Assembly: GCA_024639455.1 (NCBI GenBank)
Contig: JAHEIH010000027.1
Span: 178,822 to 242,821, forward strand
DNA from: Cellvibrionales bacterium
GTDB lineage: Bacteria > Pseudomonadota > Gammaproteobacteria > Pseudomonadales > JAHEIH01
Direction of reading: 5' to 3'
DNA length: 64,000 bases
The translations under genes and the position numbers were made by a program. Shown here in pieces: positions 8,179 to 63,115 of this stretch. Numbering within the stretch: position 1 is the stretch's first letter; each line of letters opens with the position of its first letter. The notes below the pieces were generated by a model. The model made no database searches. It saw only the letters and a program-made list of their open reading frames with translations, and was not told the origin of the DNA.

Positions 8179-8191
8179 CGTTGCCTCGTTT

Positions 8192-10300: not shown

Positions 10301-10314
10301 CTTAATGGATTGAC

Positions 10315-11538
<1,224 letters not shown>

Positions 11539-11613
11539 TTATTACTTACAAGTGTAGAGAACAGCCGCCAAAAGGCGATGGACAAGTCTTGCTAATTCTT
11601 GTACTTTTCTTTC

Positions 11614-12474
11614 ATGAAAAAAGACATCCCGCTGTATGGACTGTATGGAGAAGAACGACAACGTTCCGAGCCAGGCCCCATTCATATTGAACGCATCATC
11701 GACCGTTCGAAGGAACACGGCTGGCACATCAAACCCCATCGCCACACCCATTTATTGCAGATTTTGCATATCGACAAAGGCCTCAAACAGGCCAGCTTTG
11801 ACGAACAGCACTTCGACAAAGACACCGGCAGTAGCTTCATCATTCCGCCTGGTATGGTGCACGAATTTCACTTTTCACCCAACTCGCAGGGTTATGTATT
11901 GTCCGTATCGCTAGAGCAATTGGCCACCCTCACCCGGCACGACATACAGCATTTTAGACACGCTCAATTCTGCCACTGTCGCTGGGGATGCGATGCCAGT
12001 TTGAAACCGCGCTTCGACTTCCTTTTGAATGAACTGGCACGGCACGGCGCCGGCGAACCGAGTAGTATCGATGCCCAGTTTTTGATGGTGTCGCTACTGC
12101 TTGAATGCATCGCCCAGCAGGCCCGCCTGCAAGTAGGGGACAGCAATAGCGAGCAGAGTTTATCGCAGCGATTTAGCTCCCTGGTAGACCAACACTATGT
12201 CGAGCACCTCAGCGTCGCCGACTACGCAGAACGGTTGAGCGTATCTTACCCCACCCTCAACCGTGCCTGCTTGGCCGAACTGGGAACCGCTCCCAAGACC
12301 GTGATTAGTCATCGTTTGCTGCAAGAAGCCAAACGTAAGCTGCTGTATACCAGCATGACCATCGATCAGATCTCACACTCTCTGGCGTTCAAGGATCCTG
12401 GGTACTTCAACCGCTTCTTCAAAAAGCATTGTGAGCAAACGCCCAAGGCTTACAGACAGCGCTCGCCGCGCTAA
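11614..12474 (+). CDS. pobR: AraC-family regulator (PobR-type), divergent from pobA
   Basis: C-terminal AraC helix-turn-helix (YPTLNRACLAELGTAPKTVISHRLLQEAKRKLLYT...FKDPGYFNRFFKK). The track ORF starts at TTG 11599. I prefer the ATG at 11614. Confidence 0.8.
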   Translation: MKKDIPLYGLYGEERQRSEPGPIHIERIIDRSKEHGWHIKPHRHTHLLQILHIDKGLKQASFDEQHFDKDTGSSFIIPPGMVHEFHFSPNSQGYVLSVSLEQLATLTRHDIQHFRHAQFCHCRWGCDASLKPRFDFLLNELARHGAGEPSSIDAQFLMVSLLLECIAQQARLQVGDSNSEQSLSQRFSSLVDQHYVEHLSVADYAERLSVSYPTLNRACLAELGTAPKTVISHRLLQEAKRKLLYTSMTIDQISHSLAFKDPGYFNRFFKKHCEQTPKAYRQRSPR

Positions 12475-12769
12475 ATCGTTGTTTGAATACCTCTATTGGG
12501 CGCTTTCTGGAACAGCAAGCGAACGCTCTGATTAATCGTCGATCAAATTCCCACAGCATCAAATATAGATCGCATCCCAATGATGGTAGATCTGAAATGG
12601 TATTGAGCGGTGGACGCTATGCAGCGCGCCCCAATGAAATAACGGGGGTTCCATGGCTAGCTTCTTTTGGAGACAGCATGGCAGGCACGGAGCGGAAATT
12701 TAACTGACCTACTGTAGGGTTTGGGGCAAGTGCCCGAACATTGCTCGGGCAGCATAACGCGCCGTTAAC

Positions 12770-14116
12770 TTAACTCCACGGGAAGGGGCTATTAGACACG
12801 GGGTGTAATTCCCCATTAGCAAAGCGTGAAAAGCTGAAAGGTTCCAACAAAGACGCTTTGTGGTTGCCGCAGATTGATTCGGCCACCAGCTTACCCACCC
12901 CAAGCATTTTGTAACCATGATTGGAATCAGCCAAAAAGAAACAGTTTTTTCGCATCAGATCAAACACGGGAAAACTGTCAGGGGTAAAGCAACCAATACC
13001 ACCGGAAGGTTCATCCTTATACTGCGGCATAGTGCCAGAAAAGCGCTTTTGGCAATGAGCTAAGGCCGATACCCACATATGGGCAAATTCAGGGCCCACA
13101 ATAAATTCAGGTGACGCCGGACCATAGGGGTCCACTTGGACGTGATCGGCGGGTTTATCAACAATAAACGGCGCGGCGCCACCCTGCACGCCACCAAAAT
13201 GGAAGTCAGGTTTGTAGTAAATGCCCCACATTTTGTCGGTAATCAACGACCCATCGACATCGGAGTATAACGGTGCATCGGTATCCACGTGAATAACCGG
13301 AGGCATGTCACCGTCGTTAGTGACTTGCATTTTGGGGTCAACCCCGAGGGTACCCTCCTGCAATGACCAGTAGACCCACATCGGAATATCGGTGGCGATA
13401 GAACCGTCAGCAGGGTTTTTAATATCCACCGTCTTGGGTAATTCGAGCATCTCCCAGAAAGACTTGGCCCATGGACCCGCTCCAATCACCACAAAATCAG
13501 TCTCAATATTGCCACGATTCGTTTGGACCGCGTTAATTGAGCCGTCGCTCGCTGAGGTAAACCCCGTCACCGTCACGCCGGTAATAATGCGCACCCCTTC
13601 CTTTTCAGCCTTGCCAGCTAAACCGTACATGGCTTTGGTATTGTTGGCGTAGCCGCCAGGCATCTCATGCAGTACCGACGTTATACCCTTGGCCTGCCAA
13701 TCGTGGAAAATACCCTGCATGTAGGTGGTACATTCTTTTTCACCCTCGATGAAGCGAGATTCATAACCAATCGCTTGTTGCTGTTCATAAATAGACGCCA
13801 CGTCAGCATGCATCGATTCAGGGCTGATCTGCATATAACCCACCGGGTGATAACTATATGCTTTTGGATCGCTTTCCCAAACACTCACACTATGAGCCAT
13901 CAATTCGCGCATAGCCGGCTGAAAATAGTTGTTGCGGATGACCCCGCAGGCGATCCCCGTCGCGCCCGCGCTAATACCCGACTTATCGAGTACAATAATG
14001 TCCCGGCCATCGCCTTTTCCTTGAGATTTTAATTGCACCGCCAAGTGGTAGGCGGTGGATAAACCATGAATACCTGCTCCCACAATGACGTAGGGTGAAT
14101 GGGTTGGAAAAGCCAT
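12770..14116 (-). CDS. FAD-dependent oxidoreductase (DAO / SoxB-related amine oxidase family), last gene of the sox-like operon
   Basis: YVIVGAGIHGLSTAYHL dinucleotide fold. ATG at 14116 with an AAGAGGA RBS. The gene starts 40 nt downstream of soxG. Confidence 0.75.
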   Translation of the reverse strand: MAFPTHSPYVIVGAGIHGLSTAYHLAVQLKSQGKGDGRDIIVLDKSGISAGATGIACGVIRNNYFQPAMRELMAHSVSVWESDPKAYSYHPVGYMQISPESMHADVASIYEQQQAIGYESRFIEGEKECTTYMQGIFHDWQAKGITSVLHEMPGGYANNTKAMYGLAGKAEKEGVRIITGVTVTGFTSASDGSINAVQTNRGNIETDFVVIGAGPWAKSFWEMLELPKTVDIKNPADGSIATDIPMWVYWSLQEGTLGVDPKMQVTNDGDMPPVIHVDTDAPLYSDVDGSLITDKMWGIYYKPDFHFGGVQGGAAPFIVDKPADHVQVDPYGPASPEFIVGPEFAHMWVSALAHCQKRFSGTMPQYKDEPSGGIGCFTPDSFPVFDLMRKNCFFLADSNHGYKMLGVGKLVAESICGNHKASLLEPFSFSRFANGELHPVSNSPFPWS

Positions 14117-14156
14117 CAATGTATCCTCTTAATGTGTCAGTTCACGGCAGCGTGCG

Positions 14157-14729
14157 CTAGCCTTGATTTACTATTGTCAGTAACTGTTCTCGTTCCATGC
14201 ATTGACCGCCAAACTCAGCCATCGCATCCAACATACAGCGGCGAAAATATTCTGCTGCCGCGCTGTCGCACAGCAGGTTAAAACAGGTGTCGTTACCGAG
14301 TGTTTGATGAACCACAATGGCATTCACCCTGGCTACGGACGTCTGTGCGATAGTCCCTGGTGGAAACACCACTGCACGTAAATCTACCCCGCAGACCTTC
14401 GCCATTACATCAGCAGCACGGTCGCCGACCAACCAAAACCAGGCATGGCTATCTCGACAAAATAAGCGGTACACATCCTGTGCAGGGAGTGCCGCATCCT
14501 GCACCTTGTCCAACGGCGAATCTTCAGCCAAAGGATGTTGTAGCAACCAAAATTCCTTTGGACTCAAACGCAACACCGCCAGTTCGTCGCCATACGTGGC
14601 TAGATTAGGTGTGTCCGGAATGTTTATACCTAGCCGCTGTAAATGTTTTTCAGCGGCCAAGCCTCTGAAGCCTGCTCTGGCAGAGTCGCTCAGCTCAATC
14701 AATACAGGGTGTTCAAATTTCGATGCCAT
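14157..14729 (-). CDS. soxG: Sarcosine oxidase gamma subunit family
   Basis: Its size (190 aa) and its position directly after soxA match soxBDAG operons. It resembles the GcvT-like SoxG fold family. Confidence 0.75.
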   Translation of the reverse strand: MASKFEHPVLIELSDSARAGFRGLAAEKHLQRLGINIPDTPNLATYGDELAVLRLSPKEFWLLQHPLAEDSPLDKVQDAALPAQDVYRLFCRDSHAWFWLVGDRAADVMAKVCGVDLRAVVFPPGTIAQTSVARVNAIVVHQTLGNDTCFNLLCDSAAAEYFRRCMLDAMAEFGGQCMEREQLLTIVNQG

Positions 14730-14738
14730 AACGCCCCC

Positions 14739-17651
14739 TTACAGTGCTTGACGCTGGTTGTCAGGATCAAAGAACGGCATCGCTACCACCTCGGCAAAAA
14801 TTCTCTTGCCACCGTCCACGCGAATAGGAAGTTTGCTCCCCACAGCGGCCTGGTCGATACCCACAAATGCCATACCAATGATGGCGTCCAAAGTGGGCGA
14901 AAACTCACACGAAGTGACATTGCCACTGATGTCATCACCCTGCAATACCAGGTGGCCTTCTTCAGGCTTGAGACTGTTAGCGGGCAGAGTAAAACCTACC
15001 AATTGGCGAGTCTGTGGCTGGGCCATCAAAATATCCACCGAGCGACGCCCCACAAAAAACGGCTTTTTATAATTCAACGCCCATGTCAGAGACAATTCCC
15101 CGGGATGGCTCATACCATCGGTATCCTGACCCACAATGATATGGCCTTTTTCCAGCCGCAACAGGCGTTGCGCCTCAACGCCAAAGGGCTTAATCCCTAG
15201 CGTTTTACCGGCACCCATCACTGCGTCCCACAGGGCTTCGCCAAAACGCGATGGCACGTGAATTTCATAACCCAGTTCACCGACAAAACCGACCCGCAGC
15301 AAGCGTGCAGGCATCCCAGCCAAGGTGCATTCACGGAACCCTAAGTAGGGAAAAGCCTCTGGCGAAAGATCAATATCCGCTCCCATGTCCAGCAGCACCT
15401 CTCGCGCCAAGGGGCCAGCCACGTTAACCGCAGCAAAGGCCGAAGTGACATTGGCAATGTCGACATTTAACCGCCACTGGGCGTTCCACTTCATCATATT
15501 GCGATAAACACCCTCGACACCGCTTGTTGTAGCCGTTACATAAAAGTGCTGATCGCTCAACCGACAAGCCACACCATCGTCCACGACCACGCCATGCTCA
15601 TTGGTCATCACCGCATAACGGGTTTTGCCCACCGGCTGCTTAGCAAATCCAAAGGTGTACATACGCTCCAAAAATTCCACAGCATCGGGCCCTCGCAGCT
15701 CGATACCGCCAAGTGTACTGACATCGATAACACCGACCTGATGTCGCACATGCCAGGCTTCATCGCGAATACACGCTTGCCGCTGGCTTGTTGTCCCGTA
15801 ATAGGCCGGGCGCTGCCAATTCCCGGCTGGCATCATTTGCGCACCGAGTTCGACATGGCGCTGATGCATGCGGGTGCGACGATAAGGGTCAAACATTCGC
15901 CCCGCGCTGTGAGCCAATTTTTCCGGCGCAAACGGCGGTCGAGCCGTCGTCACGCCAGTTTCTGTTACCGTACGGCCAGTCGCTTTAGCCACCAATCGGG
16001 CGGTTGCCAATGCCGAGTGCCGCCCCTGAGATGGCCCCATACCGACGGTTGAGAATCGCTTCACCAATTGGATGTCGCGATACCCCATGCGGGTAGCATT
16101 GATGATGTCCTTGGCCTGCAAGTCTTCATCAAAATCAACAAAGTCCTTACCTTTAGGGTGGCTAAAAATCGGCCAATCAAAATTCACTTGACGGCTGCAA
16201 AAGACATCCGAAGGTACCTTCTCAGACAAGCCGAGCTGGTGCAAAGCAACACGACCCGCGCGCTCACCATCCGCCAACACAGCAGATAACGCATGTCGGC
16301 CATTAACGGATCCTGCGATATGCAGGTGCTTCGGCAGGTTTGTTAACGTAAAGGCGGCACTTCCGTCGTGATAGTTCAACTGGCCGCCCGCCTGACAGAG
16401 CAACTGGTAGACAGGCATATAGCCAGATGACATACATACCACAACACAATCAATCGACTTGCCCTGTGAAGCCACCTTGCCTTGCCCAGTAATGGCACGC
16501 AACTCGGCGCCCCGAATGCCTCGATTGCCAGCACTTGGCAGTGCCTCATACACGGTGTGACCGGCATAGTGAGCAATACCCCGCGATTGCAAGGCAGCTA
16601 ACACGTCGGTTTGCTCTGGCTCGGCGCGCATATCGACCACCGCCGCCACCTCAATACCCGCCTCTTGCAGGTCGAGCGCCGTCATGTAGCCATCATCATT
16701 GCCGGTAAGACAAATCGCCCGCTGTCCGGGTGCCACGCCATACTGCTTGATCAATCGACTAGCGGCACTGGCCATCATCACGCCAGGTAAATCGTTATTG
16801 CGAAACACCACGTGTTGCTCAAACGCCCCCGACGCCACGATGCATTCTTTGGCGCGCACTTTGTACATCCGCTTGCCTTGAATGACGGGTAAAAAGTTAT
16901 CGGTAAACCACGCGTTGCACACCGCCTTGGTAAGCACCTGGATGTTGTTATTAGCCTCAACTTGGGCCACTAAATCCGCGCGCAGCTTATCCGCCTCGAC
17001 GCCGTCAATGTCAAAGCGATGGTAGGTCAGAGAGCCGCCTAATTGTGGCTGTTCGTCAACCAGTAGCACTGATGCGCCCCCATGAGCGGCGGTTAATGCG
17101 GCCATGAGACCTGCTGGGCCAGCGCCCACCACAACCACATCATGAAACAGAAAACATTTGTCATAGTACTCAGGGGTAAAAGCGAGATCTAGCACCCCCA
17201 GACCGGCCATTTTGCGGATCATCGGTTCCCATAGCGGCCACGTTTTAAACGATCTTAAGAAGGGTATTTTATAAAACGCTCGGTAATAAAACCCTACCGG
17301 CATAAAGCGTCCAAACCACCCCAATAATGAGGAGCGATCGTGTTGCAGCGAGCCGTTGTAATTTTGTCCCGTCACCGCCACCCCAGGCGTCAGAGGCAAT
17401 TGATCAGCCAGCACATTGGGTTCCCCCCCCACTTGCATGAGCGTGTTGGCATCTTGGCCCGCCATGGTTAATGGACCACGCGGGCGGTGGTATTTGAACG
17501 AACGAGACATCAAGGCCTCGTTATTCGCCATTAAAGCACTGGCCACGGTGTCGCCTTCAAATCCCGCTAGGCGGCGACCTTCATAGCTAAAGTCGATAGG
17601 CTTATCGCGGTTAATAAAAAGCCCGGCGGGAGCGGGAAGACGAGTCATCAT
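14739..17651 (-). CDS. soxA: Sarcosine oxidase alpha subunit family (heterotetrameric type)
   Basis: 970 aa. VVVVGAGPAGLMAAL NAD/FAD fold and a C-terminal aminomethyltransferase (GcvT)-like folate domain. Its start overlaps the soxD stop (ATGATGA). Confidence 0.9.
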   Translation of the reverse strand: MMTRLPAPAGLFINRDKPIDFSYEGRRLAGFEGDTVASALMANNEALMSRSFKYHRPRGPLTMAGQDANTLMQVGGEPNVLADQLPLTPGVAVTGQNYNGSLQHDRSSLLGWFGRFMPVGFYYRAFYKIPFLRSFKTWPLWEPMIRKMAGLGVLDLAFTPEYYDKCFLFHDVVVVGAGPAGLMAALTAAHGGASVLLVDEQPQLGGSLTYHRFDIDGVEADKLRADLVAQVEANNNIQVLTKAVCNAWFTDNFLPVIQGKRMYKVRAKECIVASGAFEQHVVFRNNDLPGVMMASAASRLIKQYGVAPGQRAICLTGNDDGYMTALDLQEAGIEVAAVVDMRAEPEQTDVLAALQSRGIAHYAGHTVYEALPSAGNRGIRGAELRAITGQGKVASQGKSIDCVVVCMSSGYMPVYQLLCQAGGQLNYHDGSAAFTLTNLPKHLHIAGSVNGRHALSAVLADGERAGRVALHQLGLSEKVPSDVFCSRQVNFDWPIFSHPKGKDFVDFDEDLQAKDIINATRMGYRDIQLVKRFSTVGMGPSQGRHSALATARLVAKATGRTVTETGVTTARPPFAPEKLAHSAGRMFDPYRRTRMHQRHVELGAQMMPAGNWQRPAYYGTTSQRQACIRDEAWHVRHQVGVIDVSTLGGIELRGPDAVEFLERMYTFGFAKQPVGKTRYAVMTNEHGVVVDDGVACRLSDQHFYVTATTSGVEGVYRNMMKWNAQWRLNVDIANVTSAFAAVNVAGPLAREVLLDMGADIDLSPEAFPYLGFRECTLAGMPARLLRVGFVGELGYEIHVPSRFGEALWDAVMGAGKTLGIKPFGVEAQRLLRLEKGHIIVGQDTDGMSHPGELSLTWALNYKKPFFVGRRSVDILMAQPQTRQLVGFTLPANSLKPEEGHLVLQGDDISGNVTSCEFSPTLDAIIGMAFVGIDQAAVGSKLPIRVDGGKRIFAEVVAMPFFDPDNQRQAL

Positions 17652-17953
17652 TGCTCCTCCTTATCGCTGCCAGCAACCATAAAATCGATGCGCTGCTGAA
17701 ACATGTCCGAGGCATCGTAGGTACGCACAATGTCATCGGTTACGGTGTGGCGCTCGGCGATAAACCAATACCCTGAGGGGGTATGCAGCCACCATTCGGT
17801 GACCACGCCGGCACGGTTATCGGCATAAAACACGTATTCCGCCCACGCCTTATCCGTGCATTCATCGGGTTGGGGCATTTGTCTAACATCGCCGCCGTAA
17901 ACAAACTCACTGATATTGCGGGGACCGTTAAGTGGGCAGTGCATAATTTTCAT
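17648..17953 (-). CDS. soxD: Sarcosine oxidase delta subunit family
   Basis: MKIMHCPLNGPRNISEFVYGGD is the characteristic SoxD N-terminus. 101 aa. Confidence 0.9.
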   Translation of the reverse strand: MKIMHCPLNGPRNISEFVYGGDVRQMPQPDECTDKAWAEYVFYADNRAGVVTEWWLHTPSGYWFIAERHTVTDDIVRTYDASDMFQQRIDFMVAGSDKEEQ

Positions 17954-17978
17954 GATCGCTTTCTCTTCTCACTCAACA

Positions 17979-19226
17979 TTAATGGCTCGCCGCCGTTGCG
18001 CCCATTTCGTTGACCTGCTTGAAGGTATCGAAACGTGACATGGCAAACGGTGCAATTAACTCTGGTACAACACCGCCACTGGCCACCAACTCAGCCATCG
18101 TCTTGCCGCAGATAGGCGTGGCCTTAAAGCCCCAGGTACCCCATCCTGCGTCCAAATAGTAATTTTCTACAGGACTCAAGCCCATGATTGGACTGTAATC
18201 CGACGTCATATCAGTGATACCGGCCCACTGCCGCAATAGTCGCAAATTGGCCATAAACGGGAACATTTCGATGGCATGGGCAAGCAGGCTCTCTTTCAAC
18301 TCCAAGGTTGAGCGGGTGTTGTATAGCGGATAGGGATCGGAACCCCCGCCAAACACCATTTCACCACGACTGGTTTGCTGTACATAGCAGTGCAGCGCCG
18401 AGGAACTGACCAGCGGATCCAAGAAAGGCTTAACCGGTTGCGTGACCATGGCTTGTAGCGGATAGGTTGTTATGGGCATTCTAAACCCTGCTTTAGCCGC
18501 CATTAACGAGCTGTTACCCGCCACGGCCTGTACCACACAGCCACAACTAATGTTGCCGCGATTGGTATGAACGCCGGTCACCCTGCCATTTTGAATATCG
18601 ACATCGGTTACCTCAGTTAATTGGTGTAATTCCACACCGCGCTGGGTCGCTCCTTTAGCGTAACCCCAAGCCACCGCGTCGTGGCGTGCTGTGGCGCCAT
18701 CCTTGTGCCAAAGACCCGCCAACACGGGTAAATGAGCGGGGTTCATATTCAAGGTGGGGACTAACTCGCGAATCTCTTGTGGTCCAATGAGTTCGGTGCG
18801 CCCCCCGAAGTGCTTGTTGACTTCAGCGCGCTGGCGAAAGGCACGCACAGTCGCATCCGTGTGCGCCAAGGTCAGCTGACCACGTTCAGAATACATAATG
18901 TTGAAATCAAATTCGTGCGACAAATTCTGGAACAGCTTGACCGATGCTGCATAGAATTTGACGCCTTGCGGTGTCATGTAATTTGAACGAATCACCGCGG
19001 TATTGCGGGCGGTATTCCCCCCACCAAGGTAGCCTTTTTCAAGCACGGCCACATTGGTAATGCCGTGGTACTTAGCAAGGTAATACGCTGTCGCCACCCC
19101 GTGGCCACCACCGCCGATGATAACAACATCGTAGTGACGCTTTAGCTCACTGGGCGGCGGTAGATCCGGGTCGTTTTCGAAGGGGTAATCGCTTTTTAAA
19201 CCGAATTTCAGAAGTGAAAATGGCAT
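17979..19226 (-). CDS. soxB: Sarcosine oxidase beta subunit family
   Basis: YDVVIIGGGGHGVATAYYLAK...GGGNTARNTAVIRSNY, at the typical SoxB length of 415 aa. Confidence 0.9.
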   Translation of the reverse strand: MPFSLLKFGLKSDYPFENDPDLPPPSELKRHYDVVIIGGGGHGVATAYYLAKYHGITNVAVLEKGYLGGGNTARNTAVIRSNYMTPQGVKFYAASVKLFQNLSHEFDFNIMYSERGQLTLAHTDATVRAFRQRAEVNKHFGGRTELIGPQEIRELVPTLNMNPAHLPVLAGLWHKDGATARHDAVAWGYAKGATQRGVELHQLTEVTDVDIQNGRVTGVHTNRGNISCGCVVQAVAGNSSLMAAKAGFRMPITTYPLQAMVTQPVKPFLDPLVSSSALHCYVQQTSRGEMVFGGGSDPYPLYNTRSTLELKESLLAHAIEMFPFMANLRLLRQWAGITDMTSDYSPIMGLSPVENYYLDAGWGTWGFKATPICGKTMAELVASGGVVPELIAPFAMSRFDTFKQVNEMGATAASH

Positions 19227-19238
19227 ATCGGAGCCCTC

Positions 19239-20666
19239 TTAAGCCTTCGGCACGCGGATCGCGACGTTTTTGGTACGCACATAGCTATACAGTGCTTGCT
19301 GGCCTTTTTCTCGACCAAACCCAGACAAGCCGATGCCGCCAAAGGGTGTTTCAATACCTCCAGCATACCACTCATTAACAAACACCTGACCCGCCTGAAG
19401 GGCACGACTTGCGCGCATGGCGCGACCTAAGTCGCGGGTAAAGACACCAGCGACTAAGCCATATTCCGTGGCATTTGCTAAGGCATAGGCTTCCTCTTCA
19501 CTATCAAAAGGCGTGATCGCCAACACCGGACCAAATACTTCCTGGCAAAACAATTCCGTGCCCGGTGCAACATCGGCAAATACCGTAGGCGCCACATAAT
19601 AGCCGTCGCCTATCTGTGCCTTGCCCCCCGTAAGCAGGCGAGCGCCGTCTTGGTTGGCCCGCTCGCACATGTCAAGCACGCGTTGCTGTTGCTGCGCGGA
19701 AATGAGCGGCGTGAAATTCACACTGTCGCTACCCATTTTTTCAGCAAACGTAATCACCCGAGCCAATACTTGATCATAGATATCACGCTGGACCAGCATG
19801 CGCGACATCGCCGAGCACACCTGACCGCCATTAAAGAAAATGCCCCAGCGCACACTGTCCATCAAGTTATCGAGATCCGCATCGGCAAACACCACCGCCG
19901 CAGATTTGCCGCCCAATTCCATGACGCAAGGCGTAGCGCGATCGGCAGCCGCCCGCAGAATTGCCTGACCCGTAGGGACGGAGCCGGTAAATACAATCTG
20001 ATCCACCTCGCGATGAGCGACCAAAGCGGCTCCCGTTTCGTGGCCATAACCGCACAGAATGCTCAACGCTCCCTCGGGTAAGCCAGCTCGCTGACACGCG
20101 GTGGCAATCATAGTGATTGCTAGCGGCGTATTTTCGGGGGATTTCACAACCACCGCACAACCCGCCGCCAAGGCAGGTGCCAAAGAGCGCGCGCAGATAT
20201 CGACCGGAAAATTCCAAGGCACAATCTGCACCGACACGCCCATCGGCTCATAGTAGGTAAAATCGACATAATCTTCCCCTAGCGGGATCGACGTGCCTTC
20301 AATTTTGTCGGCCATACCGGCGTAGTAATCGAAATAGCGTGCAGCGATAGCAAATTCTTCTTGGGCATCTGCCAGGCTTTTACCGTTTTCTCGCGCCAAC
20401 AACGCGCCGCCTTGCTCGACCATTTGTTCAAGCTCACGCGCAATACGGCGCAGTAAGGCCGCCCGCTCAAGCGGGCGATGGCGGGTTAATTCACCCTTAT
20501 TAACGCATGCACGAGCGGCTACCATAGCAGCATCGATATCGGTATCAGAGGCACAAGCGATTGAAGCAAACACCTTGCCCGAGGACGGATCTTCCACCTC
20601 AATATGACGCTCTGCATCAAGCCACTCGCCCGCCACGAAGTTAAGCCAGTGTGTTTTTTCAGACAT
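19239..20666 (-). CDS. NAD(P)-dependent aldehyde dehydrogenase
   Basis: VMELGGKSAAVVF (catalytic Glu region) and FFNGGQVCSAMSR (catalytic Cys). The ATG at 20666 overlaps the TGA stop of the upstream Rieske gene by 8 nt. Confidence 0.85.
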   Translation of the reverse strand: MSEKTHWLNFVAGEWLDAERHIEVEDPSSGKVFASIACASDTDIDAAMVAARACVNKGELTRHRPLERAALLRRIARELEQMVEQGGALLARENGKSLADAQEEFAIAARYFDYYAGMADKIEGTSIPLGEDYVDFTYYEPMGVSVQIVPWNFPVDICARSLAPALAAGCAVVVKSPENTPLAITMIATACQRAGLPEGALSILCGYGHETGAALVAHREVDQIVFTGSVPTGQAILRAAADRATPCVMELGGKSAAVVFADADLDNLMDSVRWGIFFNGGQVCSAMSRMLVQRDIYDQVLARVITFAEKMGSDSVNFTPLISAQQQQRVLDMCERANQDGARLLTGGKAQIGDGYYVAPTVFADVAPGTELFCQEVFGPVLAITPFDSEEEAYALANATEYGLVAGVFTRDLGRAMRASRALQAGQVFVNEWYAGGIETPFGGIGLSGFGREKGQQALYSYVRTKNVAIRVPKA

Positions 20667-21846
20667 TAGCGGCATCCTTAGCATACAAATTAGCTATCCA
20701 ATTGTGAAAATGGTGGGTCGGTCCATCCAGCACAGGAGAGAATACCCCCCCTTTGAACCCAGGGGATCGACGGCCGCGTTGCATGCCCTCAACCGCAAAT
20801 ACATCCTCGCCAAACACCACCTTCCAACTATTTAGCACCGCCGCTCGACAGGCCTCATAGGCATCGCCCACTGCCTCGCTGCCGACATATCCCAACTGGA
20901 GTTTTTCTAGCGTGCGATTATTGGCTTCAGGTTGCAAAATGATAGCGAAGAAATGGTCGGCTTGAACGCCGAGTAGGACATTGGGATAGAGCGAGATATA
21001 TTCCGCTTGGCGCAATTTTTCTTCAGGCCATTCGGGGAACTGGGGTAGCGATGTTCCGGCCACATCCGCCAAGTTATAGGTCAACGTCCCCTGGCCTGAC
21101 ATATTGTCATTTACGATCAGGTTGTAATGCTGATCAAGTGGCGAATAGGTATTCAACGCGGGGTGTACCCAAGGTAAGTGATAGGCCTCGCAGTAATTTT
21201 CAACCGCCAACTTCCAATTCGCATCTACCGTTAATTCCATGTGACTTTCAGTGTTGGCGACCCTAAGATGCTCCATACCGTGTTTACCGGTAAATTGTTC
21301 CCAACGCGCTTCTAAGGGTGCAATGAAGTCTGTGAATGTTTCGGCTGCGCCTGACAAGTTAATGAATACAATGTCATTCCACACCGCCGAACGCACTTCT
21401 TTAAGGCCATGCTTTTCGCAAGCAAAACCTTCTGCTTCGTGCTGGCCCACACCGCCAATATGAGGCGTCGCCACAAGGTGGCCATCCAGATCGTAACTCC
21501 AGGAGTGATAGGGGCAGCGAACCAAACGTTTCACCTCGGTTTCTTCACGCACCAAAATCATGCCACGATGACTGCAAATATTGTGGAACACCTTTAGCGT
21601 GCCCTCGCGGTTGCGCATCACCACTAAAGGCAAACCCATAAAGTCAATCGGCTTAGCAGCACCTACATTAGGGATTTCGCTGGCGAACAACAATCCTGCC
21701 CAGGCACGCCCCAACACATTATCGCGTTCATATTCAAACAACTGAGGATCATCGTAGGCGGCATTAGGCATACCATTGGCCATTTCGATGGGCGACCGAA
21801 CCGCATCCAGAGACACGAGAGGAATTTGATGTTTTGAAGACGACAT
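20659..21846 (-). CDS. Rieske [2Fe-2S] non-haem-iron oxygenase alpha subunit (GbcA / CntA / choline-monooxygenase-like family)
   Basis: Rieske motif CSHRG...CPYHSWSY and a C-terminal catalytic domain. I prefer the ATG at 21846 over the TTG at 21867. Confidence 0.8.
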   Translation of the reverse strand: MSSSKHQIPLVSLDAVRSPIEMANGMPNAAYDDPQLFEYERDNVLGRAWAGLLFASEIPNVGAAKPIDFMGLPLVVMRNREGTLKVFHNICSHRGMILVREETEVKRLVRCPYHSWSYDLDGHLVATPHIGGVGQHEAEGFACEKHGLKEVRSAVWNDIVFINLSGAAETFTDFIAPLEARWEQFTGKHGMEHLRVANTESHMELTVDANWKLAVENYCEAYHLPWVHPALNTYSPLDQHYNLIVNDNMSGQGTLTYNLADVAGTSLPQFPEWPEEKLRQAEYISLYPNVLLGVQADHFFAIILQPEANNRTLEKLQLGYVGSEAVGDAYEACRAAVLNSWKVVFGEDVFAVEGMQRGRRSPGFKGGVFSPVLDGPTHHFHNWIANLYAKDAANV

Positions 21847-21959
21847 AACCGAATAACCTAGTGGCAAGTTGTTTATAATTTGAACACATAGTATTGATAT
21901 TAAGATCTTGTCGACAAACGACTTTTTCGGCTATATGTTATGAAAAAAATTCATGCATA

Positions 21960-22883
21960 ATGGCCTCGATAATGAAACAACGACCACTGCCACCGCTAAA
22001 CAGTCTCGTGGCCTTTGAATCTGCCGCCCGGCTGCTCAATTTCACTCTAGCTGCGCACGAGCTAAGCCTAACTCAAAGCGCTATAAGCAAATCTATCCGC
22101 CAGCTTGAAAGCTACCTGGGTCGCCCGCTGTTTGTGCGCGAAAAGCGGGCGTTAGCGCTAACCCCAACCGGCATCAGCTACTACGACACAGTGCATCAAG
22201 CGCTGCTACAAATATCGCTGGCCACCCGCGACATTGTGCAGTGGCAAGGAGAGCAGCAAGTCACCGTCATGACCAGTAATGCCATGGCCTCGTTTTGGCT
22301 ACTCCCCAAAATTGGCGAGTTTCAAGATCAGCACCCTGATATTGAATTGCGCATCATGTCAACCGACTCGATGAGCAACGTACGATTCAGTGAATTTGAT
22401 GTGGCACTGTTCTATTGCCGAACACCCCCTGAGGGACTCGCCGCTACACCGCTGTTTAACGAAGCCGTGTTTCCAGTGTGCAGCCCTGGCTACAAGGAAA
22501 AAATTTCACCCTTAAACACGCCAGAAGACCTGTTAAAAGCCACATTGCTGTCGCTAGAAATCAATGAAGAATGGATCACATGGGGCGATTGGTGCAAAGA
22601 GACCATACCCAATTACGTCGCCAGCAAAACCCGCAACATCAACATGAACAACTACCTGCTGGTGATACAAGCCGCTCTCAACGGCCAAGGTGTTGCTCTA
22701 GGCTGGGAACATTTGGTTGATGATTACCTCGATAGTGGTTTGCTGGTAAAAGCTACCGAACAGCGCCTAATGACTCAATCTCAGTTTTATATGATTGAGC
22801 CGACCCTCGAAAGTCGACCAAAAGCCGGGGTGGAACAATTTAAGCGATGGCTTCTCTCTCAGCTAAAACACGACAAGCTATAA
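21960..22883 (+). CDS. LysR-family regulator (GcvA-like), divergent from the Rieske-sox operon
   Basis: LNSLVAFESAARLLNFTLAAHELSLTQSAISKSIRQLE helix-turn-helix. The start is ATG 21960 or ATG 21972. Confidence 0.8.
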   Translation: MASIMKQRPLPPLNSLVAFESAARLLNFTLAAHELSLTQSAISKSIRQLESYLGRPLFVREKRALALTPTGISYYDTVHQALLQISLATRDIVQWQGEQQVTVMTSNAMASFWLLPKIGEFQDQHPDIELRIMSTDSMSNVRFSEFDVALFYCRTPPEGLAATPLFNEAVFPVCSPGYKEKISPLNTPEDLLKATLLSLEINEEWITWGDWCKETIPNYVASKTRNINMNNYLLVIQAALNGQGVALGWEHLVDDYLDSGLLVKATEQRLMTQSQFYMIEPTLESRPKAGVEQFKRWLLSQLKHDKL

Positions 22884-63095: not shown

Positions 63096-63115
63096 TCCTC
63101 TTTCCTAAATAGCCG

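What the first reader, a model, noticed from the sequence alone, without database searches (positions are those of the whole stretch)
12770..22883. Atypical nine-kb operon: Rieske oxygenase, aldehyde dehydrogenase, soxBDAG and an extra FAD amine oxidase, with a divergent GcvA-like LysR
Seen in the sequence: seven co-directional minus-strand genes with tight junctions. The Rieske and ALDH genes overlap by 8 nt, ALDH to soxB has a 12-nt gap, and soxD and soxA overlap (ATGATGA). The Rieske gene carries CSHRG...CPYHSW, the ALDH has catalytic Glu and Cys motifs, and soxB/D/A/G look canonical. The terminal 448-aa protein is DAO/SoxB-related. Established knowledge: heterotetrameric SoxBDAG demethylates sarcosine. 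Rieske oxygenases of this family (GbcA, CntA, Stc2, plant choline monooxygenase) attack quaternary amines and need a reductase partner. Classical sox loci carry folate/C1 genes (glyA, purU, folD). Neither a reductase nor any C1-folate gene is present here. Inference: this is a self-contained pathway for an N-methylated osmolyte in which an aldehyde is an intermediate. One option is a plant-like route from choline to betaine aldehyde to glycine betaine. Another is a CntA-like cleavage that yields a semialdehyde. The second FAD oxidase could handle a dimethylated intermediate. The substrate cannot be read from the sequence.
Basis: partly seen in the sequence, partly recalled or inferred. Interest (0 to 1): 0.6.

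Follow-up and report, generated by a model that had tools for sequence, protein, structure and literature searches.

The report
Fused betaine-type amine catabolic operon
This is a real seven-gene operon for breaking down an N-methylated, positively charged small molecule; it was formed by the fusion of two neighbouring operons and starts with an uncharacterised oxygenase family that databases label "choline monooxygenase", probably wrongly.

Summary
The seven co-directional genes and the divergent LysR gene are real. The Rieske protein belongs to the quaternary-amine "group V" oxygenases and has the Va signature (Tyr218, bridging Glu220). It forms a separate, uncharacterised lineage: 24% identical to spinach choline monooxygenase, about 25% to CntA, and missing three of four proposed choline-box residues. 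Rieske+ALDH is a module found in hundreds of genomes. It is normally followed by a rubredoxin-fused reductase, a PuuB-like oxidase and a cupin, usually with a BCCT transporter nearby. In an Amphritea relative this module lies just upstream of purU-folD-soxB (contig-sharing suggests the rest of sox and DAO448 follow). In the window's lineage the genes between ALDH and soxB are missing, which explains the absent reductase and C1 genes. Rieske and ALDH remain under strong purifying selection (dN/dS 0.03-0.05). The "sox" genes form a divergent clade, below all NCBIfam cut-offs and with two δ zinc ligands lost. The 448-aa flavoprotein family elsewhere accompanies betaine demethylases or gmaS-mgsABC. 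Best reading: the oxygenase makes an amino-aldehyde, ALDH makes an N-methyl amino acid, and the flavoenzymes demethylate it. The substrate is unknown; choline is unlikely.

The parts
21972..22883 (+). Divergent LysR-family regulator, GcvA/BetR-like. The alternative start at 21960 gives 307 aa.
   Evidence: Pfam HTH_1 + LysR_substrate. NCBIfam GcvA 267 bits (cut-off 288) and choline-sulfate regulator 250 bits (cut-off 325). Homologues at 48-64% identity, probably orthologues, flank the Rieske gene in most related loci. The 303-aa gene call in L178 supports the start at 21972.
21847..21971 (.). AT-rich divergent control region between the LysR and Rieske genes. It contains a perfect 10-bp palindrome TTGTCGACAA at 21908-21917.
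   Evidence: Sequence read directly. The consensus promoter scan gave no more hits than shuffled sequence, so the promoters are inferred from the divergent gene arrangement only.
20659..21846 (-). Rieske [2Fe-2S]/mononuclear-iron oxygenase alpha subunit, 395 aa. It is group V, Va-like, and belongs to the 'bacterial CMO-like' family.
   Evidence: Pfam Rieske + Ring_hydroxyl_A. Cluster ligands are C91/H93/C111/H114; iron ligands are H223/H228 and D348; Y218 matches CntA Y203 and E220 matches CntA E205. The best solved relative is CntA (100 bits, full length). Identity to spinach CMO is 24%. In the NJ tree the family has 100% bootstrap, group V 90%, and family+CntA+CMO 67%. dN/dS is 0.03 against the 94% relative.
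19239..20666 (-). NAD(P)-dependent aldehyde dehydrogenase, 475 aa. Its start overlaps the Rieske stop by 8 nt.
   Evidence: Pfam Aldedh 503 bits. Catalytic residues are Glu250 (ELGGK) and Cys284 (GQVCSA). NCBIfam BADH models score 403 and 390 bits, below cut-offs of 669 and 593. The best PDB match is 4ywe, an unnamed ALDH; true BADHs score 290-349 bits. An ALDH gene directly follows the Rieske gene in at least 59 of 69 loci. dN/dS is 0.05.
17979..19226 (-). Beta subunit of a heterotetrameric sarcosine-oxidase-like / N-methylglutamate-dehydrogenase-like enzyme, 415 aa.
   Evidence: TIGR01373 scores 481 bits (cut-off 529). Identity to proven TSOX beta is 46%. The His aligned with the TSOX beta 'KHD' His (H182), which from memory is the FMN attachment site, is kept. 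It is 88% identical to the soxB gene of a purU-folD-sox-DAO448 operon in L088. Its clade is sister to gmaS-mgsABC-linked homologues.
17648..17953 (-). Delta subunit, 101 aa, with two of the four zinc-site ligands lost.
   Evidence: Pfam SoxD. TIGR01374 scores 70 bits (cut-off 116.5). The motif is CPLNG instead of CPxCG, and there is no Cys after WLH. This state is shared by the whole window clade and by gmaS-linked L116/L135/L147.
14739..17651 (-). Alpha subunit, 970 aa, with NAD/FAD-type Rossmann fold, SO_alpha_A3 domain and folate-binding GCV_T domains.
   Evidence: Pfam. TIGR01372 scores 883 bits (cut-off 1164). There is no Cys in the first 110 residues, so the Fer2_4-like N-terminus cannot hold an Fe-S cluster.
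14157..14729 (-). Gamma subunit, 190 aa.
   Evidence: A weak GCV_T hit. TIGR01375 scores 37 bits (cut-off 144). Its position and length are as in sox/mgd operons. It is 74% identical in L008.
12770..14116 (-). 448-aa DAO-family flavoprotein ('DAO448'), probably an N-methyl(ated) amino-acid oxidase/dehydrogenase.
   Evidence: Pfam DAO matches residues 10-229 only. The family is very conserved: 77-96% identity over the 120 best clusters. It is the last gene of purU-folD-soxBDAG in L088. It sits next to GbcAB-like genes plus TSOX-like genes in L096. It lies near an MTTB-family methyltransferase and GbdR-type regulators. It is the first gene of DAO448-gmaS-mgsABC in 33 of 80 metagenome loci. dN/dS is 0.016.
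12731..12751 (-). Hairpin TGCCCGA-gcaatgt-TCGGGCA starting 18 nt after the DAO448 stop codon. It may mark the operon end, but it has no T-tract.
   Evidence: Read from the sequence. The terminator scan did not report it.

Best explanation
The locus is one LysR-controlled catabolic operon for a cationic, N-methylated small molecule (a betaine or choline-type osmolyte). It was created when two adjacent operons fused.

Step 1 (inferred from family signature and gene coupling). The Rieske oxygenase is a third lineage of the Va subgroup of quaternary-amine oxygenases. It holds the charged nitrogen against Tyr218 and hydroxylates a carbon next to, or near, that nitrogen, which yields an aldehyde.

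Step 2 (inferred). The translationally coupled aldehyde dehydrogenase oxidises that aldehyde to an acid. Every architecture of this module continues with flavin amine oxidases, which cannot attack a quaternary nitrogen. The acid therefore probably still carries the nitrogen as a tertiary or secondary N-methyl amine, that is, an N-methylated amino acid. My preferred concrete case is oxidative opening of a cyclic betaine: proline betaine or N-methylproline hydroxylated at C5 gives N,N-dimethyl- or N-methyl-glutamate semialdehyde, then the acid. This is a hypothesis, not a result.

Step 3 (inferred from homology and context). The 448-aa flavoprotein and the folate-dependent heterotetramer remove the methyl groups one after the other. 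The products are an ordinary amino acid (glutamate or glycine) and C1 units.

Shown here:
- gene content and junctions;
- family placement and signature residues;
- conservation of the Rieske-ALDH pair;
- the unfused state in relatives;
- strong purifying selection on all seven genes.

Not encoded in the window, so supplied in trans: the electron donor for the oxygenase, the uptake system, and purU/folD.
For: Group V/Va placement:
- Full-length similarity exists only to CntA and CMO. Aromatic dioxygenases match the Rieske domain only.
- The motif ENY/FCE-x-YHLPWVHP, with Tyr/Phe at CntA-203 and Glu at CntA-205, is present in all 13 family members aligned. The demethylases Stc2 and a GbcA-like protein have Asn there; BenA and AndAc have Gly and Val.
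- These criteria come from PMC7948474.
- Bootstraps: group V 90%, family+CntA+CMO 67%.

Aldehyde step:
- An ALDH gene directly follows in at least 59 of 69 loci, here with an 8-nt overlap.

The amine product is oxidisable:
- Rieske-ALDH is followed by a PuuB/AmaA-like DAO plus cupin in 47 of 69 loci.
- It is followed by soxBDAG-like genes plus DAO448 in the window, L008, L178, Arenicella and a Chromatiales MAG.
- It is accompanied by DAO448 alone in Porticoccaceae/SAR92.
- It is followed by an 806-aa DAO+GCV_T enzyme in Phaeobacter.

Cationic substrate:
- A BCCT transporter is present in 43 of 69 loci.
- GbdR-type regulators occur in 7 loci.

Fusion:
- The Amphritea MAG L177 has Rieske-ALDH-reductase-DAO ... 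IclR | purU-folD-soxB.
- L088 has DAO-EutQ | IclR | purU-folD-soxBDAG-DAO448, with SoxB 88% and DAO448 85% identical to the window.
- The window, L008 and L178 join ALDH to soxB with a 12-16 nt spacer.

Functionality without a local reductase:
- dN/dS is 0.03 for Rieske and 0.05 for ALDH at dS of about 1. There are no stop codons in L008 or L178.

Against canonical sarcosine oxidase:
- All four subunits score below the NCBIfam cut-offs.
- The clade is sister to gmaS-mgsABC-linked genes.
- Two δ zinc ligands are lost.
- A folD-linked sox-like cluster in Cobetia was assigned to N-methylglutamate dehydrogenase by phylogeny and induction on homarine, supported by R. pomeroyi mgd mutants (PMC13236597).
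Against: - No member of this Rieske family has been assayed (PMC6157903; no hit in the literature searches). The substrate and the site of hydroxylation are therefore inferences.
- The Va grouping has only 67% bootstrap in a simple NJ tree, and identity to every characterised enzyme is 20-26%.
- The Cys pair found next to the iron site in CntA and Stc2 is absent (A221, L224).
- The ring-opening idea has no precedent that I know of for Rieske enzymes acting on proline betaine. The known route is N-demethylation by Stc2/HpbB1.
- Assigning the heterotetramer to N-methylglutamate rather than sarcosine is inconclusive, because gmaS-linked homologues fall on both sides of the SoxB tree.
- The flavoproteins could belong to a separate regulon that was only secondarily joined to Rieske-ALDH.
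- No electron donor was identified, so activity in this organism is not demonstrated.
Confidence: 0.55

Rival explanations
1. Plant-like choline route. The Rieske protein is a bacterial choline monooxygenase and the ALDH is a betaine-aldehyde dehydrogenase, so the pair makes glycine betaine. An unlinked methyltransferase (BHMT or MtgB) then makes dimethylglycine. DAO448 and SoxBDAG take that to glycine.
For: - Automatic names for the family are often 'choline monooxygenase'.
- The Va signature Tyr is shared with CMO.
- The ALDH partner scores best, though below the cut-off, against BADH models.
- BCCT transporters resembling BetT or glycine-betaine importers are linked in relatives.
- The LysR resembles the choline-sulfate regulator.
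- DAO448 lies near MTTB-family methyltransferases or GbcAB-like genes elsewhere, which fits a dimethylglycine role.
Against: - Identity to spinach CMO is only 24% (100 bits), the same score as to CntA. CMO itself is closer to CntA (139 bits).
- The family+CMO grouping has 2% bootstrap.
- Three of the four residues proposed to make a true CMO (Tyr295, Phe301, Glu346) are Leu, Leu, Gly in all 13 family members aligned.
- The ALDH is well below both BADH cut-offs and is closer to generic class 1/2 ALDHs in the PDB.
- No glycine-betaine demethylase appears in any locus of the Rieske-family survey, whereas the later oxidases are nearly always there.
- Many hosts belong to genera (Pseudomonas, Halomonas, Acinetobacter) that, from general knowledge, typically carry BetAB. 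I did not check this here.
Confidence: 0.2
2. CntA-like cleavage. The oxygenase splits a linear betaine such as carnitine, gamma-butyrobetaine or beta-alanine betaine into trimethylamine plus a semialdehyde. The ALDH oxidises the semialdehyde to a central dicarboxylate. The flavoenzymes serve an unrelated or downstream methylamine function.
For: - The motif spacing is the same as in CntA (Y-x-E-x-x-H...H) and the alignment is full length.
- The layout LysR + BCCT + Rieske + ALDH resembles the Acinetobacter carnitine operon (PMC11353897 and PMC6562126, listed).
- A DddP-like M24 protein sits next to 13 loci.
- DAO448 relatives head methylamine-assimilation clusters.
Against: - Trimethylamine is not a known substrate of Sox/DMGDH/DAO-type enzymes.
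- None of the Pfam-annotated loci showed tmm, tdm or dmm genes, although I did not search for them specifically.
- The CntA Cys206/Cys209 pair is absent, and identity is 25%.
- The family+CntA grouping has 5% bootstrap.
- The reductase partner is of a different type (rubredoxin-fused NorW-like) in most loci.
Confidence: 0.12
3. Complete glycine-betaine demethylation pathway. The Rieske enzyme is a functional analogue of GbcA (glycine betaine to dimethylglycine plus formaldehyde). The ALDH oxidises formaldehyde. DAO448 converts dimethylglycine to sarcosine, and SoxBDAG converts sarcosine to glycine.
For: - This would make the operon chemically complete.
- S-formylglutathione hydrolase and a class III ADH lie directly downstream of the module in Marinobacter.
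- The linked BCCT scores best against the glycine-betaine importer model.
- DAO448 neighbours GbcAB-like genes in L096.
Against: - The GbcA model scores 127 bits (cut-off 670) and matches the N-terminal domain only.
- The demethylase signature Asn at CntA-203 is replaced by Tyr/Phe.
- The family+Vb grouping has 4% bootstrap.
- To my knowledge, an ALDH-superfamily enzyme dedicated to formaldehyde would be unusual.
Confidence: 0.08
4. Accidental fusion with a dead front end. The deletion that joined the two operons removed the reductase, so Rieske and ALDH are non-functional passengers, and the operon is effectively only a sarcosine or N-methyl amino-acid oxidase operon.
For: - There is no reductase, transporter or C1 gene in the 64-kb window.
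- The reductase and DAO448/Sox are almost mutually exclusive next to the Rieske gene: of the 10 loci with DAO448/Sox, only one also has the reductase.
Against: - dN/dS is 0.03-0.05 for Rieske and ALDH at dS of about 1. The ORFs are intact in three diverged genomes.
- All metal ligands are kept.
- The same reductase-less pairing recurs in Arenicella, a Chromatiales MAG, Porticoccaceae/SAR92, Rhodospirillales and Kiloniella.
- The LysR regulator found next to the full module in relatives, probably orthologous, is retained.
Confidence: 0.05

Closest known systems
Carnitine monooxygenase CntA/CntB (YeaW/YeaX) with malic-semialdehyde dehydrogenase, LysR regulator and BCCT transporter (Acinetobacter baumannii)
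   Same: - Homotrimer-type Rieske oxygenase with no small-subunit gene.
- Group V, with Tyr for a cation-pi contact and a bridging Glu.
- The product is an aldehyde handled by a linked ALDH.
- LysR and BCCT are linked in relatives.
- CntA is the best solved-structure match.
   Different: - Identity is only about 25%, and the family forms a separate lineage.
- The Cys206/Cys209 pair is missing.
- There is no CntB-type reductase: relatives use a rubredoxin-fused NorW-like reductase or a PDR-type one, and this window has none.
- The module is followed by N-methyl amino-acid oxidases, which make no sense after trimethylamine release.
Plant choline monooxygenase (CMO2 of Amaranthaceae) plus ALDH10 betaine-aldehyde dehydrogenase
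   Same: - Two-enzyme logic: a Rieske oxygenase followed by an ALDH.
- The Tyr281 equivalent is conserved.
- According to PMC6157903, 'bacterial CMO-like' proteins share the C-terminal catalytic-domain subfamily with plant CMO. That the window's family is that group was not checked against CDD.
   Different: - Identity is 24%.
- The bridging residue is Glu, not Asp.
- The Tyr295/Phe301/Glu346 equivalents are Leu/Leu/Gly.
- The ALDH is not a BADH by NCBIfam cut-offs.
- The context is catabolic, not biosynthetic.
Pseudomonas glycine-betaine catabolism: GbcAB, DgcAB, SoxBDAG with glyA, purU and sda, under GbdR
   Same: - A Rieske enzyme first, then stepwise demethylation ending in a folate-dependent heterotetramer.
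- GbdR-type regulators and purU/folD accompany the orthologous sox-DAO448 block in relatives.
   Different: - The Rieske enzyme here is Va-like, not the GbcA (Vb) type.
- An ALDH is inserted.
- DgcAB is replaced by an unrelated 448-aa DAO protein.
- There are no C1 genes in this window.
- The heterotetramer falls below the TSOX cut-offs.
N-methylglutamate dehydrogenase MgdABCD of the methylamine (gmaS-mgsABC) pathway and of homarine catabolism (PMC13236597)
   Same: - The four-subunit order is the same as soxBDAG.
- The window's clade is sister to gmaS-mgsABC-linked homologues and shares their δ subunit lacking two zinc ligands.
- The orthologous block in relatives is folD-linked, like the Cobetia mgd cluster.
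   Different: - There are no gmaS or mgsABC genes in the window.
- Other gmaS-linked homologues group with proven sarcosine oxidases, so sequence alone does not decide.
- No reference Mgd sequence with proven activity was available to me.
Proline-betaine / hydroxyproline-betaine catabolism (Stc2-Stc4, HpbB1/C1, HpbA; PMC3950512)
   Same: A betaine imported by BCCT- or ABC-type systems is attacked first by a group V Rieske enzyme and then by a flavin N-methyl amino-acid demethylase.
   Different: - Those Rieske enzymes are Vb demethylases (Asn at the signature position; Stc2 is 23% identical).
- No obligatory ALDH follows them.
- The ring-opening chemistry proposed here would be a different route.

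Membership tests
Group V (quaternary-amine) Rieske oxygenases | Rieske CxH...CxxH cluster motif and a 2-His-1-carboxylate iron site | tested here: met
   C91/H93/C111/H114 and H223/H228/D348. All are invariant in the 16-sequence family alignment.
Group V (quaternary-amine) Rieske oxygenases | Groups with CntA/CMO/GbcA/Stc2 and apart from aromatic ring-hydroxylating oxygenases | tested here: met
   In an NJ tree with BenA and AndAc as outgroup, group V has 90% of 300 bootstraps. In the PDB, only CntA aligns over both domains.
Group V (quaternary-amine) Rieske oxygenases | Bridging glutamate (CntA E205) between the Rieske cluster and the iron site | tested here: met
   E220 aligns with CntA E205. 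The criterion comes from PMC7948474.
Group V (quaternary-amine) Rieske oxygenases | Oxidises a quaternary ammonium substrate | not testable with these tools
   Indirect evidence only: BCCT transporters in 43 of 69 related loci.
Subgroup Va (CntA, CMO, OxyBAC: C-hydroxylation / C-N cleavage) | Aromatic residue (Tyr/Phe) at CntA position 203 | tested here: met
   Y218 in the window. All 13 family members aligned have Tyr or Phe; Stc2 and the GbcA-like protein have Asn.
Subgroup Va (CntA, CMO, OxyBAC: C-hydroxylation / C-N cleavage) | Cys-x-x-Cys pair next to the iron site (present in 'some' group V members) | tested here: not met
   A221 and L224 replace CntA C206 and C209. The papers do not treat this as a strict family criterion.
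Bona fide choline monooxygenase (CMO2) | Orthology to plant CMO | tested here: not met
   Identity is 24% (100 bits), equal to the CntA score. The family+CMO grouping has 2% bootstrap.
Bona fide choline monooxygenase (CMO2) | Choline box Tyr281/Tyr295/Phe301/Glu346 (PMC6157903) | tested here: not met
   The window has Y218/L231/L237/G293. The same residues occur in all family members apart from Phe for Tyr218 in one.
Carnitine monooxygenase CntA | Close similarity to CntA/YeaW and an adjacent CntB-type (FNR + plant ferredoxin) reductase | tested here: not met
   Identity is 25-26%. There is no such reductase in the window. Most relatives use a rubredoxin-fused reductase.
Glycine betaine monooxygenase GbcA | NCBIfam NF058607 at or above 670 bits | tested here: not met
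   127 bits, covering the N-terminal 210 residues only.
Betaine-aldehyde dehydrogenase | NCBIfam TIGR01804 at or above 668.6 bits, or PRK13252 at or above 593 bits | tested here: not met
   403 and 390 bits. The general ALDH catalytic Glu250 and Cys284 are present.
Heterotetrameric sarcosine oxidase (TSOX, SoxBDAG) | Four genes in B-D-A-G order with the expected domains, including the folate-binding GCV_T domain in alpha | tested here: met
Heterotetrameric sarcosine oxidase (TSOX, SoxBDAG) | Curated NCBIfam cut-offs for soxB, soxD, soxA and soxG | tested here: not met
   481 against 529, 70 against 116.5, 883 against 1164, and 37 against 144 bits.
Heterotetrameric sarcosine oxidase (TSOX, SoxBDAG) | Beta-subunit His for covalent FMN | tested here: met
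   H182 (ARHD) aligns with the KHD His of the 1x31 and 2gag beta chains. That this His is the FMN attachment site is recalled from memory, not shown by a tool.
Heterotetrameric sarcosine oxidase (TSOX, SoxBDAG) | Cys3His zinc site in the delta subunit | tested here: not met
   The second Cys is Asn (CPLNG) and the fourth ligand Cys is missing.
Heterotetrameric sarcosine oxidase (TSOX, SoxBDAG) | Activity on sarcosine | not testable with these tools
   No assay was possible.
N-methylglutamate dehydrogenase (MgdABCD) | Clustering with gmaS and mgsABC | tested here: not met
   tblastn found no gmaS or mgs homologue in the window.
N-methylglutamate dehydrogenase (MgdABCD) | Phylogenetic grouping with enzymes of proven or context-inferred NMGDH function | tested here: inconclusive
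   The window clade is sister to gmaS-linked L116/L135/L147. However, gmaS-linked L124 groups on the TSOX side of the SoxB tree (L151 was not in the tree; its SoxB-like gene is 45% identical). No biochemically proven Mgd sequence was available.
GcvA-type LysR regulator | NCBIfam PRK11139 at or above 288 bits | tested here: not met
   267 bits. This is close to the cut-off, so 'GcvA-like' is fair but membership is not established.

The most novel reading that the evidence does not exclude
The 'bacterial choline monooxygenase' family may be a third, unassayed lineage of quaternary-amine Rieske oxygenases whose real job is not choline oxidation. The family is widespread in marine and soil Proteobacteria and is counted as CMO in ocean metatranscriptomes. 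Together with its obligatory ALDH it may open or cleave a betaine so that the nitrogen stays on the acid product. One example would be proline betaine to N,N-dimethylglutamate, which is then demethylated by a new single-subunit flavoprotein (DAO448) and an N-methylglutamate-dehydrogenase-like complex. That would be a previously unknown route from an abundant osmolyte to glutamate. It would also be a second non-methylamine source of N-methylglutamate, after homarine.
Probability: 0.25. Interest if true: 0.8.

Novelty: new variant of a known kind. Interest (0 to 1): 0.55.

Why it matters
- Methylated amines and betaines are major carbon, nitrogen and energy currencies in the sea.
If the family acts on another compound, those inferences are wrong and a widespread catabolic route is missing from the maps.
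- The locus gives a compact, testable enzyme set: oxygenase, ALDH and two demethylating flavoenzymes under one regulator.
- It provides a natural experiment showing that the oxygenase is kept under selection without a locally encoded reductase.
- It points to a highly conserved 448-aa flavoprotein. That protein also heads methylamine-assimilation clusters and may be an unrecognised N-methyl amino-acid dehydrogenase.

Tried and rejected
- **Homarine operon (homABCDER).** I read PMC13236597. It has no Rieske gene, so it is not the same system. I kept only its point that sox and mgd are often confused.
- **Orthology to plant CMO.** I recalled a spinach CMO sequence from memory and used it only as a search probe. 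It hit the real protein (P0241) at 94% identity, and all comparisons then used P0241. Orthology was rejected.
- **Reductase inside the window.** Pfam was run on all ORFs of at least 150 aa except three near the 3' end (62011-63988). tblastn was run with the rubredoxin-fused and PDR-type reductases of relatives. Nothing was found. The two Pyr_redox_2 proteins present are SthA (646 bits) and AhpF.
- **SoxA N-terminal Fer2_4 domain as a hidden electron donor.** Rejected, because there is no Cys in the first 110 residues.
- **Structure of DAO448.** The AlphaFold model from a shallow alignment was poor (mean pLDDT 57; residues 248-381 below 50). I did not run a fold search.
- **Promoter/terminator consensus scan.** Hit counts equalled those of shuffled sequence, so the scan was uninformative.
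- **Organism name.** The nearest named genome is an uncultured 'Pseudomonadales' MAG.
- **Decaying remnant hypothesis.** Rejected on the basis of dN/dS.
- **Literature.** Ten full-text searches found no paper that assays a member of this Rieske family or of DAO448. The library does not cover most subscription journals, so absence is not proof.

Full report
**1. Observation.**
The region 12770-22883 holds seven co-directional minus-strand ORFs and one divergent plus-strand ORF. Pfam assigns:
- Rieske + Ring_hydroxyl_A;
- Aldedh;
- DAO (soxB-like);
- SoxD;
- the multi-domain SoxA architecture, including the folate-binding GCV_T domains;
- a weak GCV_T hit (soxG-like);
- a second DAO protein;
- a LysR regulator.

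Rieske and ALDH overlap by 8 nt (ATGTCTGA). The other junctions are ALDH-soxB 12 nt, soxB-soxD 25 nt, soxD/soxA a 4-nt overlap, soxA-soxG 9 nt and soxG-DAO 40 nt. Independent gene calls on identical contigs give the same seven genes with products of 395, 475, 415, 101, 970, 190 and 448 aa. The order is kept in relatives at 94% (L008) and 83% (L178) identity.

**2. Surroundings.**
- Below the operon lie pobR and pobA (4-hydroxybenzoate 3-monooxygenase, 639 bits), a phenol-2-monooxygenase-like gene, MarR, an MFS transporter and an AMP-dependent ligase. These are followed by the soluble transhydrogenase SthA and alanine dehydrogenase.
- Above it lie a second LysR gene, an SbtA-like transporter, purE, purK, ahpF and ahpC.
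- The rest of the window contains no FNR/PDR-type reductase, ferredoxin, rubredoxin, BCCT transporter, purU, folD or glyA. Pfam covered all ORFs of at least 150 aa except three near the 3' end. tblastn with the relatives' reductases, purU and folD covered the whole window.

**3. The Rieske protein.**
- Its best solved relative is carnitine monooxygenase CntA (100 bits), and the alignment spans both domains. Next come the betaine demethylases Stc2 and 4qup. Aromatic dioxygenases match only the N-terminal Rieske domain.
- The GbcA model of NCBIfam scores 127 bits against a cut-off of 670.
- To test the "choline monooxygenase" label that sources give to relatives, I retrieved the real spinach CMO (P0241). 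The window protein is 24% identical to it (100 bits). CMO scores 139 bits against CntA.
- I built an NJ tree with CMOs, CntA, YeaW, Stc2, a GbcA-like protein, BenA and AndAc. The window's family is monophyletic (100% bootstrap). Group V separates from the aromatic outgroup (90%). Stc2 groups with the GbcA-like protein (98%), and CntA with CMO (79%). The family joins CntA+CMO with 67% support. It joins CMO alone in 2% of replicates, CntA alone in 5%, and the demethylases in 4%.
- Quareshy et al. (PMC7948474) split group V in two. Va has Tyr/Phe at CntA position 203 and performs carbon hydroxylation or C-N cleavage (CntA, CMO, OxyBAC). Vb has Asn there and performs N-demethylation (GbcA/BmoA, Stc2). 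A bridging Glu205 is also characteristic.
- The window has Y218 and E220 at exactly these positions, with CntA's spacing. All 13 family members aligned have Tyr or Phe there. The Cys206/Cys209 pair of CntA and Stc2 is absent (A221, L224).
- Carrillo-Campos et al. (PMC6157903) proposed that true CMOs need Tyr281, Tyr295, Phe301 and Glu346. They noted that "bacterial CMO-like" proteins lack the last three and have never been assayed. The window family has Y/L/L/G at these positions.
- Conclusion: the protein is a group V, Va-like oxygenase of its own lineage. It is not an orthologue of CMO, CntA or GbcA.

**4. How widespread the family is, and what accompanies it.**
The 80 best loci come from Marinobacterium, Marinomonas, Marinobacter, Halomonas, Pseudomonas, Acinetobacter, Psychrobacter, Zobellella, Cupriavidus, Arenicella, Porticoccaceae and others.
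- I annotated the neighbours by BLAST against reference proteins and counted the 69 loci that had at least 6 kb of downstream sequence:

| Neighbour of the Rieske gene | Loci (of 69) |
|---|---|
| ALDH directly downstream | at least 59 |
| Rubredoxin-fused NorW-like reductase | 55 |
| PuuB/AmaA-like DAO oxidase | 47 |
| EutQ-like cupin | 46 |
| BCCT transporter | 43 |
| DddP-like M24 protein | 13 |
| DAO448 | 10 |
| soxBDAG-like genes | 4 |

- NCBIfam characterised the accessory proteins.
- Architecture A (with reductase) accounts for 54 loci. Architecture B (DAO448 with or without sox, no reductase) accounts for 9. One locus has both and five have neither.
- Architecture B occurs in the window's lineage, in Arenicella, and in a Chromatiales MAG. 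A reduced form (Rieske-ALDH next to DAO448) occurs in Porticoccaceae/SAR92, and a looser association in Rhodospirillales and Kiloniella.
- In Phaeobacter plasmids a 48%-identical homologue is followed by ALDH and an 806-aa DAO+FAO_M+GCV_T enzyme of the dimethylglycine-dehydrogenase type. A PDR-type reductase lies upstream and a BCCT gene nearby.
- Three kinds of electron donor are therefore used, including none locally. Yet the pair Rieske-ALDH is always continued by an enzyme that oxidises N-methyl amines.

**5. Origin of the atypical layout.**
- In an Amphritea MAG (L177; Rieske 74% identical) the order is: M24 <- | -> Rieske-ALDH-reductase-DAO, an unknown gene, IclR <- | -> purU-folD-soxB....
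- In L088 the order is DAO-EutQ, IclR, purU-folD-soxBDAG-DAO448. It is followed by a 2OG oxygenase, two GbdR-type regulators and a betaine-type ABC transporter. Its SoxB, SoxA and DAO448 are 88%, 72% and 85% identical to the window's.
- In the window, L008 and L178, ALDH is joined to soxB by a 12-16 nt spacer.
- The simplest reading is that the genes between ALDH and soxB were lost, which fused the two neighbouring operons. In L177 these are the reductase, the PuuB-like oxidase, an unknown gene, the IclR regulator, purU and folD, spanning about 8 kb.
- The fused genes are not decaying. Between the window and L008, dS is about 1 and dN/dS is 0.03 (Rieske), 0.05 (ALDH), 0.02 (soxB), 0.05 (soxA) and 0.016 (DAO448). 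There are no stop codons in L008 or L178.

**6. The "sox" genes.**
- All four subunits fall below the curated NCBIfam cut-offs.
- SoxB is 46% identical to the biochemically proven TSOX beta subunits of Corynebacterium U-96 and S. maltophilia. It is 60% identical to homologues that follow gmaS-mgsABC (L135).
- In the SoxB tree the window clade consists of the window, L008, L088, L052, L101, L121, L023, L094, L040 and L095, all of them linked to DAO448. This clade is sister to the gmaS-linked L116/L135/L147. The proven TSOX lie on the other side of the tree. One gmaS-linked sequence (L124) also lies on that other side, so the assignment is not decisive.
- The δ subunit of the window clade and of L116/L135/L147 has lost two of the four zinc ligands. 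It has CPLNG instead of CPxCG, and no Cys after WxH.
- The His aligned with the TSOX beta 'KHD' His (H182), which I recall as the covalent FMN site, and the folate domain of alpha are retained.
- The homarine paper assigned a folD-linked sox-like cluster of the gammaproteobacterium Cobetia to N-methylglutamate dehydrogenase, on the basis of phylogeny and induction on homarine and supported by R. pomeroyi mgd mutants.
- I therefore call the window enzyme [quoted passage not shown] and leave its specificity open.

**7. The 448-aa flavoprotein (DAO448).**
- Only its first 229 residues match the DAO model.
- The family is unusually conserved, at 77-96% identity over the 120 best 90%-clusters. Its only names are generic ones or "monomeric sarcosine oxidase".
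- I examined 80 metagenome loci. In 33 of them it is the first gene of a GntR <-> DAO448-gmaS-mgsA-mgsB-mgsC-137aa cluster. Only five of those have sox/mgd-like genes within reach.
- Other loci place it after soxBDAG, next to the Va Rieske gene, or next to GbdR-type regulators and an MTTB-family methyltransferase.
- In L096 it sits beside a GbcA-like oxygenase (495 bits), a GbcB-like reductase and TSOX-like genes.
- Rieske-linked copies mostly form one clade. The alphaproteobacterial Rieske-linked copies (L031, L035) fall elsewhere in the tree, so the association is not just shared ancestry.
- The common denominator is oxidation of an N-methylated amino acid: dimethylglycine-like after a betaine demethylase, or N-methylglutamate-like in the methylamine cluster.
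- The AlphaFold model was too poor to use.

**8. Mechanism.**
What is shown:
- gene content, coupling and signature residues;
- the conserved module;
- the fusion;
- purifying selection.

What is inferred:
- The oxygenase binds a cationic N-methylated compound through Tyr218 and hydroxylates a carbon, giving an aldehyde.
- The ALDH makes the acid.
- Flavin amine oxidases cannot act on a quaternary nitrogen, and one such enzyme follows in nearly every architecture. The acid therefore probably carries a tertiary or secondary N-methyl amine.
- DAO448 and the heterotetramer then demethylate it, the heterotetramer passing the methyl group to tetrahydrofolate.

A chemically complete example that uses every enzyme is C5-hydroxylation of proline betaine. 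This is CntA-type C-N cleavage, but within a ring. It would give N,N-dimethylglutamate semialdehyde, then N,N-dimethylglutamate, N-methylglutamate and finally glutamate. I give the general scheme a probability of 0.55 and this specific substrate about 0.15-0.2.

The choline/CMO reading (0.2), a CntA-like trimethylamine-releasing cleavage (0.12), a GbcA-like demethylase with ALDH acting on formaldehyde (0.08) and a dead front end (0.05) are treated as rivals, with their own evidence.

**9. Comparison with known systems and novelty.**
- The locus works like the Rieske-first betaine catabolic systems (CntAB + semialdehyde dehydrogenase; GbcAB-DgcAB-SoxBDAG; Stc2/Hpb).
- It fails the membership tests for CMO, CntA, GbcA, BADH and canonical TSOX.
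- It passes the tests for group V and the Va signature.
- The Rieske family probably corresponds to the "bacterial CMO-like" proteins described in the literature only as uncharacterised. RefSeq and NCBIfam give it generic names. My ten literature searches found no assay.
- I therefore class the finding as a new variant of a known kind. It is an unassayed third lineage of quaternary-amine Rieske oxygenases with an obligatory ALDH. Here it is fused to an N-methyl amino-acid demethylation block and has no locally encoded electron donor.
- Interest is moderate (0.55). The finding is not categorically new. But it affects how "CMO" genes are read in marine omics, and it offers a compact set of enzymes for discovering a betaine pathway.

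Noticed in passing
window 12770-14116; loci L114-L172: Homologues of the terminal 448-aa flavoprotein (66-74% identical) are the first gene of a conserved GntR <-> DAO-gmaS-mgsA-mgsB-mgsC-137aa cluster in 33 of 80 metagenome loci. Most of these have no mgdABCD within reach. The protein may be an unrecognised single-subunit N-methylglutamate (or related) dehydrogenase of the methylamine pathway.
   Followed up: partly
window 17648-17953: The sox delta subunit has lost two of the four zinc ligands of proven sarcosine oxidase delta (CPLNG instead of CPxCG; no Cys after WLH). The loss is shared by the whole window clade and by gmaS-linked homologues L116, L135 and L147.
   Followed up: yes
window 20659-21846 and the family in L003-L091: Sources label this bacterial family 'choline monooxygenase', and marine metatranscriptome papers count CMO transcripts (PMC12324868, PMC9321204). 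The family is only 24% identical to spinach CMO and lacks three of the four proposed choline-box residues. If those transcripts come from this family, such counts probably do not measure choline oxidation.
   Followed up: partly
window 4400-12474: The 8-kb aromatic-acid island (AMP-ligase, MFS, MarR, phenol-2-monooxygenase-like, pobA, pobR) lies between the operon and sthA here. In the 94% relative L008 it lies on the opposite (LysR) side of the operon. In the 83% relative L178 it is absent from the sequenced flanks, and sthA directly follows DAO448. The island therefore looks like a mobile or rearranged block.
   Followed up: partly
window 21908-21917: There is a perfect 10-bp palindrome TTGTCGACAA in the AT-rich region between the LysR and Rieske genes. 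It is a candidate regulator-binding site. Its conservation in relatives was not tested.
   Followed up: no
L008-L087 (genome loci): Next to the Rieske gene, the rubredoxin-fused reductase and DAO448/sox are almost mutually exclusive. The reductase is present in 55 of 69 loci and DAO448/sox in 10, with only one locus having both. The reason is unexplained. It could reflect repeated fusions by deletion, or a different way of supplying electrons.
   Followed up: partly
L006, L012, L021, L034, L039, L043, L044, L061, L063, L068, L177: A Peptidase_M24 protein recurs beside the Rieske-ALDH module in 13 of 69 loci. The copy scanned (from L006) scores 394 bits against the DMSP lyase DddP model (cut-off 600). 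Its role is unknown. It hints at an onium compound that can undergo elimination.
   Followed up: no
L003 14156-16175 (Marinobacter): S-formylglutathione hydrolase and a class III alcohol (formaldehyde) dehydrogenase lie directly downstream of the Rieske-ALDH-reductase genes. This suggests that the pathway releases formaldehyde in that organism.
   Followed up: no
window 44752-48258 and 52123-53663: Two sensor genes lie elsewhere in the window and appear unrelated to the finding. One is a 1168-aa sensor kinase with an N-terminal sodium:solute symporter domain, a PAS domain and a receiver domain, next to a LuxR-type response regulator. The other is an H-NOX (haem-NO-binding) protein followed by a histidine kinase.
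   Followed up: no
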